NCBI GenBank assembly: GCA_039679715.1
Contig: JBDKUM010000070.1
Coordinates: 1-63,656 of the forward strand
Source: Phycisphaerales bacterium
GTDB taxonomy: Bacteria; Planctomycetota; Phycisphaerae; Sedimentisphaerales; UBA12454
Direction of reading: 5' to 3'
DNA length: 63,656 bases
Both the position numbers and the translations under genes were made by a program. Below the pieces are notes generated by a model. The model was not told where the DNA came from. It made no database searches and saw only the letters and a program-made list of their open reading frames with translations. Positions 32,483-45,179 of the stretch are shown here, in pieces. Positions within the stretch are counted from its first letter, which is position 1, and each line of letters opens with the position of its first letter.

Positions 32483-32881
32483 TTATTGTTCAGTTGATTC
32501 TTTTTTCAAATCACCGATTGAGCAAGGCTCGGCGACTTTTCTATAGCCAAGAGCCTGCACTATTTCCAAAACTTCGGTCCAGGTCGGGAAAGGTCTGTTG
32601 TTTTGCTTTTTATATTGGTCAATCGCCATGACAAATGAAAACTGCTCATCAGTCATCTGGCCTTCTTCGGCAGCTCGGCGGTCGTCTGTGCGTCTCCTGC
32701 CGGGGCCGCGGCGACGGTCAAGGTCAACTCTTCTATCAGCGACACATACGCGTTTTGCGGATGTTTGCTCTCTCTGCTCTGAATAACAATTGTCTAAATC
32801 TGTTTTATATTCTTCCACGGCTAATACCTCATCTCGGTTCATTTCAATTTCCATTTCCATCATTGAAGTCATAACGTTCAT
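32483..32881 (-). CDS. Hypothetical acidic/Arg-rich protein with a conserved-looking C-terminal helical domain
   Basis: RRVDLDRRRGPGRRRTDDRRAAEE followed by FSFVMAIDQYKKQNNRPFPTWTEVLEIVQALGYRKV. The start is uncertain: Met codons at 32881...32842, and 32842 would remove the 38-nt overlap with the upstream gene. Confidence 0.55.
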   Translation of the reverse strand: MNVMTSMMEMEIEMNRDEVLAVEEYKTDLDNCYSEQREQTSAKRVCVADRRVDLDRRRGPGRRRTDDRRAAEEGQMTDEQFSFVMAIDQYKKQNNRPFPTWTEVLEIVQALGYRKVAEPCSIGDLKKESTEQ

Positions 32882-33167
32882 CTTCCCAATTTATGTCATT
32901 AAACGCATCATCCAAAAAACAGTCGAAATCCTGCTGCGACTCAATAATACGTTGAGCGTCGTCAAGCAGGCTTTCAGGAACCATCACCGCTGTTCCGATT
33001 ATCGCCATCGAATAACTTTTCTGCGTAGCTGTTACCGCAGGAATGTTATGCCTTATAAGAATGTCGCGATATTCATTCGCAAAATCGACATCCTCGGCGA
33101 TAGCGACCGTAACATAATCCTCCAAAGCCGATTTCTGGTTATCACTATTTTTTTCATCACTAATCAT
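32844..33167 (-). CDS. Small DUF2007-like (putative signal-transducing, GlnB-like fold) protein
   Basis: YVTVAIAEDVDFANEYRDILIRHNIPAV...TAVMVPESLLDDAQRII fits the beta-alpha-beta layout of DUF2007. Weak call. Confidence 0.5.
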   Translation of the reverse strand: MISDEKNSDNQKSALEDYVTVAIAEDVDFANEYRDILIRHNIPAVTATQKSYSMAIIGTAVMVPESLLDDAQRIIESQQDFDCFLDDAFNDINWEDERYDFNDGNGN

Positions 33168-33441
33168 AATTTTTACTTTCGTGTTCTAAACCGTTCCGAA
33201 CTCATAGCCGGAATTGGTATAAAACCACTTCTTATGGTGTTTTCGACCAAAAGTAAGCCCGAATTAATCTAAAAAAGTGAATGAAAGAGCTAATAAATGC
33301 AAAATTTTGCATATTTTCTGATTTTTTTAGTTGCAAAACGTCTTATAAATGCACAGAATAGCGTCCAGAAAGTCGACCTTGTCGTGAAAGGCCGATAATA
33401 AAAGGAATTGTTGTTTTAATTTTGCACGGAGGAATCCTGAC

Positions 33442-33636
33442 ATGGCAAAGAAAAAAGCTGGAAAAGAGTCTTTGATTGTAGCAAGTAAAGTCAAAGCGTA
33501 TGTAAAGAGCAAAAAGATGATGACATCTGCTGATGCTCTGGGCGCTTTGAGCGATAAAATTTATTGCATACTTGATTGCGCTTGCGAAAGAACAAAGCTC
33601 AACAGACGCAGCACTTTGAAACCACAAGATCTGTAA
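33442..33636 (+). CDS. Bacterial histone-fold protein (DUF1931 / HBb-like singlet histone)
   Basis: 64 aa and Lys-rich. SLIVASKVKAYVKSKKMMTSADALGALSDKIYCILDCACERTKLNRRSTLKPQDL follows the pattern I recall for Bdellovibrio Bd0055 and Leptospira bacterial histones (LVV.SKVK..IK.K......A...LS..I..L......A...GRKT....D). GGAGG RBS at 33428-33432, with its own terminator downstream. Confidence 0.65.
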   Translation: MAKKKAGKESLIVASKVKAYVKSKKMMTSADALGALSDKIYCILDCACERTKLNRRSTLKPQDL

Positions 33637-33660
33637 TAGTTTTACAGAACTAAAACAACG

Positions 33661-33728
33661 AACCGGCCATTTGAAATCTGAAATTTTCTTATGAAAGTCT
33701 CAAATTAACAATGGTCGGTTTTTTTTTA
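33661..33728 (+). terminator. Intrinsic terminator after the histone-fold gene
   Basis: AACCGGCCATT (33661-33671) pairs with AATGGTCGGTT (33710-33720; 11 bp, one G-U). A T9 run follows. The loop is unusually long (~38 nt). Confidence 0.5.
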
Positions 33729-33945: not shown

Positions 33946-35253
33946 TTGAAGGTATTCATGCTAGGATGGGAATTTCCGCCGTTTATCAGCGGAGGTTTGG
34001 GCACTGCTTGCTATGGTTTGACAAAAGCCATGAGCAAATTGGGCCTTGAGATTACGTTCGTATTGCCAAGAATGGTACGGACGGACAATCTTTCCAGCCA
34101 TATCAACTTGCGAACACCGGCAGACATCAAAGGAAGTTTTCTCGAAGAATGGGAAACCGACGAGATTAAAAACATGAGAATCAAAACGATCGATTCTCCT
34201 TTGAAGCCATACGGCAACGCCGAAACATATAAAACTCAAATCGAAGAAATCATCCGCAACAAACAGCAGAGAATGACCGGAATTATTAATAATGATCATT
34301 TACAGGACAACGGTCATTATGCCGGCGATATGTATGCGGAGGTTCACAGGTATGCGGCGGCGGCTGTAAGACTTGCACAGCAGGAAAGTTTCGATGTCGT
34401 GCACGCACATGACTGGATGACATATCAGGCAGGTATCGCGGTTGCGGCAGTCAGCGGCAAACCATTGGTTATACATGTACATTCGACCGAATTCGACCGC
34501 AGCGGCGAACATGTAAATCAAATGATTTACAATATTGAACGAGCAGGTATGCACGCGGCGGATAAAATTATAGCTGTCAGCTATCTTACGAAAAATATTA
34601 TTTTGTCACGTTACGGAATCGAAGGTGACAAAGTTGAAGTTGTTTATAACGGTATCGAGAAGAACGGCCAAAGCCTGGGACTTGGTAAAATCGGAATCAG
34701 CAGAGATGAGAAGATTGTGCTGTTTTTGGGCAGAATCACAATGCAAAAAGGGCCGGAATATTTCCTCGGAGCCGCTAAAAAGGTTCTTGAAGTAATGGAT
34801 AATGTTCGGTTCGTTATGGCAGGTTCCGGCGATATGATGAAACGCACGATTGAACTTGCGGCGCAGCTTGGTATCGGCAGCAAAGTGCTTTTCACGGGCT
34901 TTTTACGCGGCGAAGATGTGCGGAAAGTCTATGAAAGAGCCGATTTGTATGTTATGCCGAGCGTTTCAGAGCCTTTTGGTATCGCACCGCTTGAGGCGCT
35001 TAATAATGATGTGCCGGTGCTGATAAGCAAACAAAGCGGCGTTTCGGAAGTTTTGACTCATGTACTCAAAGCGGACTTCTGGGATGTCAATGAAATAGCG
35101 AATAAAATTGTCGCAGTTCTTAAGTATCCTCCTTTGCAGATGACACTCAAGGAACATGGAAACTATGAGGTCAGAAAGCTGAAATGGGAAGATGCGGCGG
35201 AAAAATGCAGACAAGTATATATGCAGGTTCTCGAACAGGCTCTCTGCGTATAA
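33946..35253 (+). CDS. GT4/GT5-type alpha-glucan (glycogen) synthase-like glycosyltransferase
   Basis: MLGWEFPPFISGGLGTAC (glycogen-synthase-like N-terminus), HAHDWMT, and EPFGIAPLEA (EX7E). Start is either TTG 33946 or ATG 33958. Confidence 0.8.
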   Translation: MKVFMLGWEFPPFISGGLGTACYGLTKAMSKLGLEITFVLPRMVRTDNLSSHINLRTPADIKGSFLEEWETDEIKNMRIKTIDSPLKPYGNAETYKTQIEEIIRNKQQRMTGIINNDHLQDNGHYAGDMYAEVHRYAAAAVRLAQQESFDVVHAHDWMTYQAGIAVAAVSGKPLVIHVHSTEFDRSGEHVNQMIYNIERAGMHAADKIIAVSYLTKNIILSRYGIEGDKVEVVYNGIEKNGQSLGLGKIGISRDEKIVLFLGRITMQKGPEYFLGAAKKVLEVMDNVRFVMAGSGDMMKRTIELAAQLGIGSKVLFTGFLRGEDVRKVYERADLYVMPSVSEPFGIAPLEALNNDVPVLISKQSGVSEVLTHVLKADFWDVNEIANKIVAVLKYPPLQMTLKEHGNYEVRKLKWEDAAEKCRQVYMQVLEQALCV

Positions 35254-35390
35254 AAAATTCAAAATTTAAAAATTAAAAATCAAAATTGTGGAAGGCCTTG
35301 GGCCAATTTTTTTTTATTATATACCTCAAAACGGTTCGTAAATTTTGATTTTTGATATTTGATATTTAATTTAGTTATCAAGGATGATAT

Positions 35391-36611
35391 ATGCCATCGG
35401 TATGCTTTTATTTTCAAGTTCATCAGCCATTTAGGCTAAGACATTATACCGTTTTTGACCAGGACCTCCGATATTTTGACGATTTCAAAAATAAATCCAT
35501 TTGCCAGAAAGTAGCAAACAAGTGCTATCTTCCCGCCAACAGGGTAATTCTTGACCTTATCAAAAGACATGAAGGAAAATTCAAAGTAGCATACAGCATT
35601 ACCGGCGTTTTACTTGAGCAATTAGCGGATTATGCACCTGAAGTGATGAGTACATTCGATGCTCTTGCAAGGACTGGATGTGTTGAATTCATCGCTGAAA
35701 CTTATTATCATAGTTTGAGCTTTCTTTATTCCCGCGGAGAATTCCGTGATCAAATTTTCAAACACATGGATACCATCGAAACCCTGTTTGGACAAAGGCC
35801 AAGGGTTTTCAGAAATACCGAACTAATATATAGTAATGATTTGGCGGCTGAATTGGAATCAATGGGTATTTTCGACGGCGTTATTACAGAAGGCGCAGAT
35901 AAAATTCTGTGGGGCCGAAGTCCGAATTTCCTGTATAAGCCGCCGGGAGAACACAAAATTAAGATTCTGCTGAAAAATTACGCTTTGAGCGATGATATCG
36001 CATTTAGATTCTCAAACAGAGGCTGGAATGAATGGCCTTTGAAAGCGGAAAAGTTCAGCCAATGGGTCAACCAGGTAAACGGCAACGGTTATGTAACCAA
36101 TCTTTTTATGGATTATGAAACTTTTGGCGAACATCAATGGGAAGATACTGGCATTTTCGAGTTCCTGAAGAAACTGCCGGAAGAAATTCTGCGTCATCCT
36201 GATAATAGTTTCAAAACGCCATCAGAGGCGATTGCATCTTATCCGGCAACGGATGTTGTAGATGTGCCGACATTGATAAGCTGGGCTGATACGGAACGAG
36301 ATATTTCCGCATGGCTGGGCAACGCGATGCAATCAAATGCGCTGCACGAAGTTTACCGTATGGAGCAGACGATTAAAAAGACAGGCGATAAAAAGCTTCT
36401 TTCCGATTGGCGAAAATTGCAGACCAGCGACCATTTTTATTATATGTGTACAAAATGGTTCTCTGACGGCGATGTTCATAAATATTTTAATCCATACGAT
36501 TCACCATACGATTCTTACATTAACTTTATGAATATTATGGGTAATCTTGAAAAGAGATGCGGAAAACAAACAAAAAGCCGTAAGAAAGTTAATGATCTTC
36601 AAAGTGCTTGA
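35391..36611 (+). CDS. Glycoside hydrolase family 57 (alpha-amylase/branching-type)
   Basis: FQVHQPFR at the N-terminus and the catalytic-region FMDYETFGEHQW. 4-nt overlap with the next gene. Confidence 0.85.
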   Translation: MPSVCFYFQVHQPFRLRHYTVFDQDLRYFDDFKNKSICQKVANKCYLPANRVILDLIKRHEGKFKVAYSITGVLLEQLADYAPEVMSTFDALARTGCVEFIAETYYHSLSFLYSRGEFRDQIFKHMDTIETLFGQRPRVFRNTELIYSNDLAAELESMGIFDGVITEGADKILWGRSPNFLYKPPGEHKIKILLKNYALSDDIAFRFSNRGWNEWPLKAEKFSQWVNQVNGNGYVTNLFMDYETFGEHQWEDTGIFEFLKKLPEEILRHPDNSFKTPSEAIASYPATDVVDVPTLISWADTERDISAWLGNAMQSNALHEVYRMEQTIKKTGDKKLLSDWRKLQTSDHFYYMCTKWFSDGDVHKYFNPYDSPYDSYINFMNIMGNLEKRCGKQTKSRKKVNDLQSA

Positions 36612-44660: not shown

Positions 44661-45179
44661 ATGAAATACTCAAAGATGATTTTGATGACAGCAGTGATGC
44701 TCATGGTTAGTATGACCATCGCTTATGCCGGCGACAAAAAGGCAAACGAGAAAAAGGCCAGTGTGAAAAAAGGCCAGGCAGTGAAAGCATGTGCTGATGC
44801 TAATGCAGCAGCAAAATGCACAGTTAAAAAAGCGGGAGAGAGTAAAAAGCAGTGCGCCAAAAAAGAGTCTAATATAAAATGTCAGCAAAAATGCAAGAAT
44901 GAAACAGCACAAGCTTCAGGCAAAAAATTGGGCTGGTTATCTTTCCTTAACAGAAAAGAAGTCAAAGCAGCCGATAAAGAAGCAAAGTCCTGCAAAGTAT
45001 CAGAAAACAAGCCGTGCAAAAAAGAATGTAAAAAGGCTTGTCTAAAAAAATGCAAAAAAGCGGCAGATCCAAACACACCAGTCGACCCAAATGCTCCAAA
45101 GTGTGTATCAAAGATTTGCAAAAAAGCCGCAGCAGCTAATGCCAAAAAATCGACAGAATCTGCAACACAAACAAAATAA
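44661..45179 (+). CDS. Secreted Lys/Cys/Ala-rich low-complexity protein
   Basis: Signal peptide MKYSKMILMTAVMLMVSMTIAYA, then 12 Cys embedded in K-rich text (KPCKKECKKACLKKCKK). GGAAAGGA RBS and a strong terminator downstream. Confidence 0.6.
   Translation: MKYSKMILMTAVMLMVSMTIAYAGDKKANEKKASVKKGQAVKACADANAAAKCTVKKAGESKKQCAKKESNIKCQQKCKNETAQASGKKLGWLSFLNRKEVKAADKEAKSCKVSENKPCKKECKKACLKKCKKAADPNTPVDPNAPKCVSKICKKAAAANAKKSTESATQTK

What the first reader, a model, noticed from the sequence alone, without database searches (positions are those of the whole stretch)
33442..33636. Stand-alone bacterial histone-fold (DUF1931/HBb-like) gene with strong expression signals
Seen: a 64-aa Lys-rich ORF with a GGAGG RBS and its own terminator.

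The sequence LIVASKVKAYVKSKKMMTSADALGALSDKIYCILDCACERTKLNRRSTLKPQDL follows the helix-strand-helix pattern I remember for the singlet bacterial histones of Bdellovibrio (Bd0055) and Leptospira: LVV-SKVK--IK-K...A...LS..I..L...A...GRKT....D.

Established knowledge: such proteins were only recently shown to be abundant nucleoid constituents with unusual DNA-binding modes.

Inference: a PVC-group homologue would be a chromatin protein candidate. The two Cys residues in helix 2-3 (CILDCAC) are unusual.
Basis: partly seen in the sequence, partly recalled or inferred. Interest (0 to 1): 0.65.

Follow-up and report, generated by a model that had tools for sequence, protein, structure and literature searches.

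The report
Planctomycete face-to-face bacterial histone gene
This small, transcribed gene encodes a true bacterial histone of the tetramer-forming "face-to-face" class already solved in Leptospira, so it is a good but expected chromatin-protein candidate in an uncultured planctomycete, notable mainly for cysteines along its central helix.

Summary
The 64-aa ORF at 33442-33636 (+) is real, under purifying selection and transcribed. It is a singlet alpha3-truncated histone of the face-to-face (FtF) class. It is 54% identical without gaps to Leptospira perolatii HLp (PDB 9QT0, E=4.9e-17; family profile 2.3e-26). Matches to Bdellovibrio HBb (38%) and archaeal HTkC (34%) are weaker. All FtF signature residues are present: the alpha1 lysine K18, the dimer-dimer residues R50 and N54, and RxTxxxxD (R56, T58, D63). 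The HLp DNA-contact residues are almost all kept. It is not a Pfam DUF1931 member: there is no significant hit, and true DUF1931 proteins are pseudodimers. The expression signals are conserved across about 80 species-level genomes. They are a T-rich tract plus TTGCAA-N17-A/T-rich hexamer promoter, a GGAGG Shine-Dalgarno sequence, and a hairpin plus U9 terminator. It is the only locus in the 63.6-kb window with exact RNA contigs in all three metatranscriptomes examined. The family and its presence in Planctomycetota are already published, so this is a new member of a known kind. The one unusual feature is clade-specific: 86% of close relatives carry a Cys at position 42 or 46, against 2-17% in more distant relatives. 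The tetramer, DNA wrapping and any cysteine function are inferred, not shown.

The parts
33325..33336 (+). T-rich tract plus TTGCAA, putative -35 element of the histone promoter
   Evidence: The motif T{3,}N0-3TTGCAA is present within 200 nt upstream in 72 of 78 orthologous loci, at a median position of -110. It occurs in 56 of 1600 control windows, 3.5%. It occurs once in the window, with 0.09 expected. Its function as a promoter is inferred.
33354..33359 (+). CAGAAT, putative -10 hexamer 17 nt after TTGCAA; predicted transcription start near 33366
   Evidence: In orthologous loci the hexamer at the same 17-nt spacing is TAATAA (27), CAAAAT (13), CATATA (13) or CAGAAT (3). An RNA contig begins at 33397, downstream of the predicted start. 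Inferred, not mapped.
33428..33432 (+). Shine-Dalgarno GGAGG, 9-nt spacer to the ATG
   Evidence: Read directly. An SD-like sequence lies at -20 to -5 in 76 of 78 orthologous loci.
33442..33636 (+). Coding sequence of a 64-aa FtF-class alpha3 histone (7.05 kDa, pI 9.8): Lys-rich tail 1-8, alpha1 about 9-23, loop 24-28, alpha2 29-53, loop 54-60, one-turn alpha3 61-63
   Evidence: RNA contigs 33397-33623, 33436-33622 and 33520-33670 match with 0 mismatches.
33660..33727 (+). Intrinsic-terminator-like long hairpin followed by a U9 run
   Evidence: Fold z = -4.98. The stem is kept in L001 and L002 with different loops and changed stem bases. A hairpin (dG <= -10) plus T5 lies within 200 nt downstream in 56 of 78 loci.

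Best explanation
The gene encodes a nucleoid-associated histone of the bacterial face-to-face (FtF) alpha3 class. By analogy with its solved relative HLp, two chains form a head-to-tail histone-fold dimer through their antiparallel alpha2 helices. Two dimers then join face to face through the end of alpha2, loop 2 and the one-turn alpha3. The residues involved are R50, N54 and R56, with the R56-D63 clamp shaping loop 2. The resulting basic tetramer binds DNA without sequence preference through backbone contacts and wraps roughly 60 bp. The contacts come from A14-S15-K16, K18 and K22 on alpha1 and from the T28 / S57-T58 loop bridge, helped by a Lys-rich N-terminal tail. The gene is a monocistronic, well-expressed unit with its own promoter, strong ribosome-binding site and terminator. 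Shown here: homology, signature residues, selection, conserved signals and transcription. Inferred: dimer and tetramer formation, DNA wrapping and abundance at the protein level.
For: Sequence: there is a gapless 59-residue alignment to HLp 9QT0 (E=4.9e-17, 54% identity). The family profile gives 2.3e-26 to HLp, 2.1e-8 to HBb and 6.2e-6 to HTkC.

Signature: Schwab 2024 (PMC11390915) define FtF by HMM positions K16, R48, N52, R54, T56 and D61, and note that bacterial dimers lack R48 and N52. The query has K18, R50, N54, R56, T58 and D63. R50, N54, R56, T58 and D63 are invariant in 120 of 120 close homologues, and K18 is K or R throughout. HBb has S and D at 50 and 54.

HLp residue map (PMC12701072): 7 of 9 distinct DNA-contact residues are identical, and the other two changes are G->A and T->S. 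The three tetramer residues that the authors call conserved are kept, and so is the RD clamp.

Fold: the AF2 monomer shows helices 2-23 and 29-53 and a turn at 61-63, which is an alpha3-truncated histone fold.

Expression: exact RNA contigs appear in three metatranscriptomes. This is the only locus in the window seen in all three. Its depth is second-highest in X2 and highest in X3.

Conserved promoter, SD and terminator.

Distribution: 390 species-level genomes encode a relative, and the best 80 are nearly all Planctomycetota/Phycisphaerae. This matches the published distribution.

Against: Three of the six residues in the HLp dimer-dimer hydrogen-bond network differ: S52->L53, T61->Q62 and F63->L64. 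One dimer-core leucine is a cysteine here (L47->C48).

The RNA evidence comes from assembled contigs, which are only semi-quantitative. No protein-level or DNA-binding data exist for any planctomycete member. I could not test whether the genome also has HU, IHF or Dps, because the genome search was shut.
Confidence: 0.82

Rival explanations
1. It is an HBb-like 'bacterial dimer' histone that stays dimeric and bends or coats DNA rather than wrapping it as a tetramer.
For: There is significant similarity to HBb (E=0.007 for the single sequence, 2.1e-8 for the profile). Bacterial dimer histones also occur in Planctomycetota (PMC11390915). Three of six HLp tetramer-network residues differ. The oligomeric state was not tested.
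Against: R50 and N54, the residues that bacterial dimers lack, are present and invariant in 120 of 120 homologues. Identity to HLp is 54% against 38% to HBb. The E-values differ by 14-18 orders of magnitude.
Confidence: 0.08
2. It is a histone-fold protein with a narrower, locus-linked or condition-specific role rather than a global chromatin protein. For example, it might work with the two conserved divergent small genes or regulate the adjacent glycogen cluster.
For: The microsynteny is very stable. The two small upstream genes are present in 62-63 of 70 loci and the GT5 glycogen synthase in 73 of 76. The histone shares a 250-490 bp divergent intergenic region with the small genes.
Against: Each gene has its own signals, and the histone has its own terminator. 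The solved homologues bind DNA non-specifically and are top-2% expressed (PMC12701072, PMC11390915). The histone transcript was detected while none of its immediate neighbours gave RNA contigs. The synteny may simply reflect vertical inheritance within one order.
Confidence: 0.07
3. It is a spurious or decaying small ORF.
For: It is short and has no Pfam or NCBIfam hit.
Against: There are 783 homologues with a third-position-dominated substitution pattern. RNA contigs cover it, and the match to a solved protein is highly significant.
Confidence: 0.01

Closest known systems
HLp, face-to-face histone of Leptospira perolatii (PDB 9QT0/9QT1/9QT2; Hu et al. 2025, PMC12701072)
   Same: It has the same length class (63-65 aa) and aligns without gaps at 54% identity. 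The alpha1 'paired ends of helices' motif ASK, K17/K21, the MTS loop 1, R49/N53/R55 and the R55-D62 clamp are all kept. It also has a basic N-terminal tail and is a stand-alone gene.
   Different: G29->A, S52->L, T61->Q, F63->L and L47->C. Cysteines replace A41 and D45. The neighbourhood differs: Leptospira hlp sits by smc, map and a DUF350 gene, whereas here the gene sits between two unknown small genes and a glycogen cluster. There are no experimental data for the planctomycete protein.
HBb / Bd0055, 'bacterial dimer' histone of Bdellovibrio bacteriovorus (PDB 8CMP, 8FVX)
   Same: It is an alpha3-truncated singlet histone with the SKVK alpha1 motif, an RxT...D loop-2 clamp and high expression.
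   Different: Identity is only 38%. HBb has Ser and Asp where this protein has the dimer-dimer residues R50 and N54. HBb is a dimer that bends DNA.
HTkC, archaeal FtF histone of Thermococcus kodakarensis (PDB 9F2C; Schwab et al. 2024, PMC11390915)
   Same: It belongs to the same FtF class by profile (E=6.2e-6). Its tetramer is torus-shaped and it carries the RxTxxxxD motif.
   Different: Identity is 34%. It has no N-terminal tail and is archaeal. Glu stands in place of N54 in the pairwise alignment.
DUF1931 (PF09123) pseudodimeric histone-fold proteins (Aquifex Aq_328, Thermus; PDB 1R4V, 1WWI)
   Same: A distant histone fold. The PDB depositors even labelled HLp 'DUF1931 domain-containing protein'.
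   Different: DUF1931 proteins have two folds in one chain and lack DNA-binding residues. They form a separate sequence cluster (PMC12701072). There is no significant PF09123 hit here.

Membership tests
Face-to-face (FtF) alpha3 histones | Significant sequence similarity to solved FtF members | tested here: met
   HLp 9QT0 at E=4.9e-17. By profile, 2.3e-26 to HLp and 6.2e-6 to HTkC 9F2C.
Face-to-face (FtF) alpha3 histones | Dimer-dimer residues R48 and N52 of the FtF HMM, which are absent from bacterial dimers | tested here: met
   R50 and N54 are present and invariant in 120 of 120 close homologues. HBb has S and D at these positions. The criterion comes from PMC11390915.
Face-to-face (FtF) alpha3 histones | RxTxxxxD loop-2 motif (RD clamp plus DNA-contact Thr) and the conserved alpha1 lysine (HMM K16) | tested here: met
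   R56-S-T58-L-K-P-Q-D63 and K18.
Face-to-face (FtF) alpha3 histones | Torus-shaped homotetramer of two dimers, which is the feature the class is defined by | not testable with these tools
   Only single-chain AlphaFold2 was available. It needs AlphaFold-Multimer, SEC-MALS or a crystal structure.
alpha3-truncated histone family | Histone fold with alpha3 reduced to 3-4 residues | tested here: met
   The AF2 model shows helices 2-23 and 29-53 and a helical turn at 61-63 at the C-terminus. Its pLDDT of 68.9 is moderate. The protein ends one residue after D63, as in HLp.
alpha3-truncated histone family | Fold-level match to solved histones | tested here: inconclusive
Bacterial dimer histones (HBb class) | Clusters by sequence with HBb and lacks R48/N52 | tested here: not met
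   38% identity to HBb against 54% to HLp. R50 and N54 are present.
DUF1931 (Pfam PF09123) | Pfam hit above the gathering score | tested here: not met
   0 families for the query at E<=10. Only 4 of 61 relatives hit, with a best E of 0.039.
DUF1931 (Pfam PF09123) | Pseudodimer: two histone folds in one chain | tested here: not met
   A 64-aa single fold.
Nucleosomal archaeal/eukaryotic histones (PF00808, PF00125) | Pfam hit and a full-length alpha3 of about 10 residues | tested here: not met
   No hit for the query. There are sub-threshold hits in 1-3 of 61 relatives. Alpha3 is a single turn.
Major nucleoid-associated protein (functional class) | High expression | tested here: inconclusive
   It is the only locus in the window with exact RNA contigs in all three metatranscriptomes, and its contig depth is highest or second-highest. 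Contig depth is only semi-quantitative, and there are no proteomics data.
Major nucleoid-associated protein (functional class) | Non-specific DNA binding and nucleoid association | not testable with these tools
   It needs EMSA, TPM, ChIP or microscopy.

The most novel reading that the evidence does not exclude
The Phycisphaerae-type FtF histones may have evolved a thiol-lined (Cys42, with Cys or His at 46) face of alpha2. By helical geometry this face points away from the dimer core. In a face-to-face tetramer it would therefore look into the central cavity or the dimer-dimer gap. That would make the tetramer redox- or metal-responsive, through a disulfide lock or a Zn, Cu or Fe site. It would be a prokaryotic parallel to the Cys110/His113 copper site proposed at the eukaryotic H3-H3' interface (10.1101/350652). 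Support: 86% of 211 close relatives have Cys at 42 or 46, against 17% and 2% in more distant bins. Cys46 is commoner when position 42 is not Cys (Fisher p=0.011, not corrected for phylogeny). His46 occurs only together with Cys42 (17 of 17). Cys is confined to alpha2 positions 42, 46 and 48. Where the side chains sit in the tetramer was not modelled.
Probability: 0.08. Interest if true: 0.75.

Novelty: new member of a known kind. Interest (0 to 1): 0.4.

Why it matters
Bacterial histones were recognised only in 2023-2025, and just two have been characterised: HBb as a dimer and HLp as a tetramer. Planctomycetota are listed in those surveys as carrying FtF histones. The paper library searched holds no experimental characterisation of a planctomycete member, and every close relative found here comes from an uncultured genome. 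This locus provides a clean, transcribed, monocistronic example with all FtF signature residues. It also provides a promoter, ribosome-binding site and terminator architecture conserved across about 80 species. It is therefore a reasonable candidate for testing whether histone-based chromatin extends to the PVC superphylum, whose condensed nucleoids have long been debated. The clade-specific cysteines give a concrete biochemical question. The finding does not change the picture of what bacterial histones are.

Tried and rejected
- **Pfam and NCBIfam scans of the ORF:** no hit even at E<=10. The per-member Pfam scan of 61 relatives gave only sub-threshold hits. The histone families (DUF1931, Histone, CBFD_NFYB_HMF, CENP-X) scored no better than unrelated families.
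- **Consensus promoter and terminator scan:** it found no + strand promoter in the intergenic region upstream of the gene and missed the terminator, which has a long loop. Comparative analysis replaced it.
- **The 16-bp palindrome at 33297-33312 as an operator:** it is absent from all 12 related loci, including those encoding the identical protein. I rejected it as a conserved element.
- **Whole-genome questions** (paralogues, HU/IHF/Dps): the genome search was shut. Only the window could be checked, and it holds no paralogue.
- **Mobile-element or phage origin:** rejected, because the gene sits in a conserved chromosomal context next to glycogen metabolism genes.
- **The two conserved upstream small proteins:** searched against PDB, Pfam and NCBIfam without result.

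Full report
**Observation**

The ORF is exactly as described. It runs from the ATG at 33442 to the stop ending at 33636 on the + strand and encodes the 64 residues MAKKKAGKESLIVASKVKAYVKSKKMMTSADALGALSDKIYCILDCACERTKLNRRSTLKPQDL. The protein is 7.05 kDa with a pI of 9.8.

GGAGG lies at 33428-33432, nine bases before the ATG. Downstream, 33660-33721 forms a long hairpin followed by nine U. The 106-nt stretch folds at -30.4 kcal/mol, z = -4.98, and no shuffle out of 200 folds as well.

The frame is under purifying selection. Against 44 gapless orthologues, differences fall 471:212:1321 on codon positions 1:2:3. Synonymous codon changes number 1028 and non-synonymous 463. The overlapping antisense ORFs are therefore by-products. 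The CILDCAC stretch has three cysteines, not two.

**What it is**

Pfam and NCBIfam give nothing, even at E<=10. A search of solved structures is decisive instead.
- The ORF aligns without gaps over 59 residues to chain 9QT0_A at E=4.9e-17, with 54% identity.
- It aligns more weakly to 8CMP/8FVX (E about 0.007, 38% identity) and to 9F2C (E=0.11, 34% identity).
- A profile of 61 relatives raises these to 2.3e-26, 2.1e-8 and 6.2e-6.

The literature identifies these chains. 9QT0 is HLp of Leptospira perolatii, a tetrameric bacterial histone that wraps about 60 bp (PMC12701072). 8CMP and 8FVX are HBb/Bd0055, a dimer that bends DNA. 9F2C is HTkC, the archaeal face-to-face (FtF) histone with a torus-shaped tetramer (PMC11390915).

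**Class membership**

Schwab et al. define FtF histones by their tetramer. They list the conserved HMM positions K16, R48, N52, R54, T56 and D61, and note that 'bacterial dimer' histones lack R48 and N52.

The query has K18, R50, N54, R56, T58 and D63. Positions 50, 54, 56, 58 and 63 are invariant in all 120 closest homologues. HBb has Ser and Asp at 50 and 54.

I mapped the residues named in the HLp paper onto the query (query number = HLp number + 1).
- DNA contacts: A13, S14, K15, K17, K21, T27 and T57 are identical. G29 becomes Ala and T56 becomes Ser.
- RD clamp: R55-D62 is kept.
- Dimer-dimer network: R49, N53 and R55, the three the authors call conserved among tetrameric bacterial FtF histones, are kept. 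S52, T61 and F63 become Leu, Gln and Leu.
- Dimer core: conservative changes except L47->Cys48.

The defining tetramer could not be modelled, because only single chains can be folded here. I therefore file the protein as an FtF-class alpha3 histone on sequence criteria, with the quaternary structure untested.

It is not a DUF1931 (PF09123) member. That family consists of pseudodimers lacking DNA-binding residues (PMC12701072). Only 4 of 61 relatives touch the model, all below threshold.

**Distribution and context**

- The word-indexed search found 783 homologues. Every one that a source named was called 'hypothetical protein', and none had a precomputed Pfam domain. Those with a taxon came from Planctomycetota, Phycisphaerae or Sedimentisphaerales MAGs.
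- The exhaustive search of 1.84 billion representatives found 217 clusters at E<=1e-3, some of them doublets of about 120 aa.
- 390 species-representative genomes encode a relative. The best 80 are all uncultured: 79 MAGs and one single-cell genome. The identical protein occurs in 'Planctomycetes bacterium GWF2_42_9'.
- The neighbourhood is strikingly stable. Two small divergent genes lie upstream in 62-63 of 70 loci. A GT5 glycogen synthase and a GH57 enzyme lie downstream in 73 of 76 and 67 of 71 loci.
- This differs from the smc/map/DUF350 neighbourhood of Leptospira hlp.
- There is no paralogue in the window. The whole genome could not be searched.

**Expression signals**

The consensus scan found no + strand promoter in the intergenic region upstream of the gene. 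Comparison did find one.
- A T-rich tract plus TTGCAA lies upstream in 72 of 78 loci, at a median of -110 from the ATG. It occurs in only 3.5% of control windows.
- Seventeen bases later comes an A/T-rich hexamer: TAATAA 27, CAAAAT 13, CATATA 13 and CAGAAT 3.
- In the window these elements are TTGCAA at 33331-33336 and CAGAAT at 33354-33359. They predict a transcription start near 33366 and a 5' UTR of about 76 nt.
- An SD-like sequence is present in 76 of 78 loci, and a hairpin plus T run downstream in 56 of 78.
- In the closest loci the terminator stem is kept while the loop and some stem bases differ.

**Transcription**

One DNA run holds the whole stretch. Three metatranscriptomes from the same wastewater study hold exact RNA contigs at 33397-33623, 33436-33622 and 33520-33670. 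They hold nothing on the immediate neighbours.

I laid the same runs on the rest of the 63.6-kb window. Only scattered short contigs appeared, in genes for a large surface protein, ClpB, PFK, PurF, PurM, ETF-QO, a histidine kinase and an unknown 172-aa ORF.

The histone gene is the only locus detected in all three runs. Its contig depth of 9.16 is second-highest in the window in X2, and its depth of 7.82 is the highest in X3.

This fits the high expression reported for HLp-type and HBb histones. Contig depth is only a rough measure, however.

**Mechanism**

By homology, the protein most likely forms a head-to-tail dimer and then a face-to-face tetramer. The tetramer's basic rim, together with the Lys-rich tail, would bind and wrap DNA non-specifically, so the protein would act as a nucleoid-organising protein. 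Homology, signature residues, selection, conserved signals and transcription are shown. Oligomeric state, DNA binding and abundance are inferred.

The main rival is an HBb-like dimer (about 0.08). It is disfavoured by R50 and N54 and by the much stronger similarity to HLp. A locus-linked role (about 0.07) is suggested only by the synteny.

**The cysteines**

- C42 is present in 105 of the 120 closest homologues. C46 is present in 44 and C48 in 34.
- Across 174 domains from 50%-identity representatives, Cys42 is rare (14), and three or more cysteines in one domain is uncommon (9 of 174).
- In 211 distinct sequences at least 70% identical to the query, 86% have Cys at 42 or 46. This compares with 17% in the 50-70% bin and 2% below 50%.
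- Cys46 is commoner when position 42 is not Cys (21 of 50 against 37 of 161; Fisher p=0.011, uncorrected for phylogeny).
- His46 occurs only with Cys42, in 17 of 17 cases.
- Cys is essentially confined to positions 42, 46 and 48.

By helical periodicity, positions 42 and 46 lie on one face of alpha2, away from the L36/I40/I43/A47 core stripe. That is my inference, not a modelled result. In a face-to-face tetramer this face could look toward the other dimer.

A redox or metal role, parallel to H3 Cys110/His113 (10.1101/350652), is not excluded. It is speculative, at about 0.08.

**Novelty**

Both the family and its occurrence in Planctomycetota are stated in PMC11390915 and PMC12701072. This is therefore a new member of a known kind. 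It has some value as an uncharacterised phylum-level representative, and it carries a clade-specific cysteine feature worth a bench test.

Noticed in passing
window 32483-32881 (-) and 32844-33167 (-): Two small divergent genes (about 124-132 aa and 107 aa) accompany the histone gene in 62-63 of 70 species-level loci. They have no Pfam, NCBIfam or PDB match. The longer one has an acidic N-terminus, an Arg-rich middle (RRRGPGRRRTDDRR) and a conserved C-terminal segment ([35 protein letters not shown]). A relative of the shorter one has a faint DUF2007 hit. A possible functional link to the histone is untested.
   Followed up: partly
It holds TTGCAT on both strands, resembling the TTGCAA -35-like element. 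It is absent from all 12 related loci, including those encoding the identical histone, so it is not a conserved element.
   Followed up: yes
window 44661-45179 (+): A 172-aa ORF with no Pfam or NCBIfam hit carries the deepest RNA contig of the window in run X2 (11.8) and a contig of depth 6.9 in X3. It is an uncharacterised, apparently well-expressed gene.
   Followed up: partly
L042 and L048 (JBEKGR010000002.1, Sedimentisphaerales MAG SPRUCE 258): One genome carries two histone copies about 7 kb apart. The second copy (L048) lacks the usual flanking genes, so paralogues exist in some members of the clade.
   Followed up: no
proteins P0149, P0152, P0153, P0157 and others: Relatives of about 118-130 aa match the query in two stretches. 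They look like tandem doublet (pseudodimer) versions of this alpha3 histone and are distinct from DUF1931.
   Followed up: no
L054 (JAIVYN010000033.1): A contig labelled 'Candidatus Aegiribacteria sp.' holds an 80%-identical histone with the full planctomycete synteny: both upstream genes, GT5 and GH57. It is probably a mis-binned contig rather than a transfer.
   Followed up: no
window 33946-36611 and onward (+): A glycogen-metabolism cluster lies immediately downstream of the histone gene in nearly all relatives: GT5/GT4 glycogen synthase, a GH57 enzyme and a GDE-type debranching enzyme. It gave no RNA contigs in the three metatranscriptomes.
   Followed up: partly
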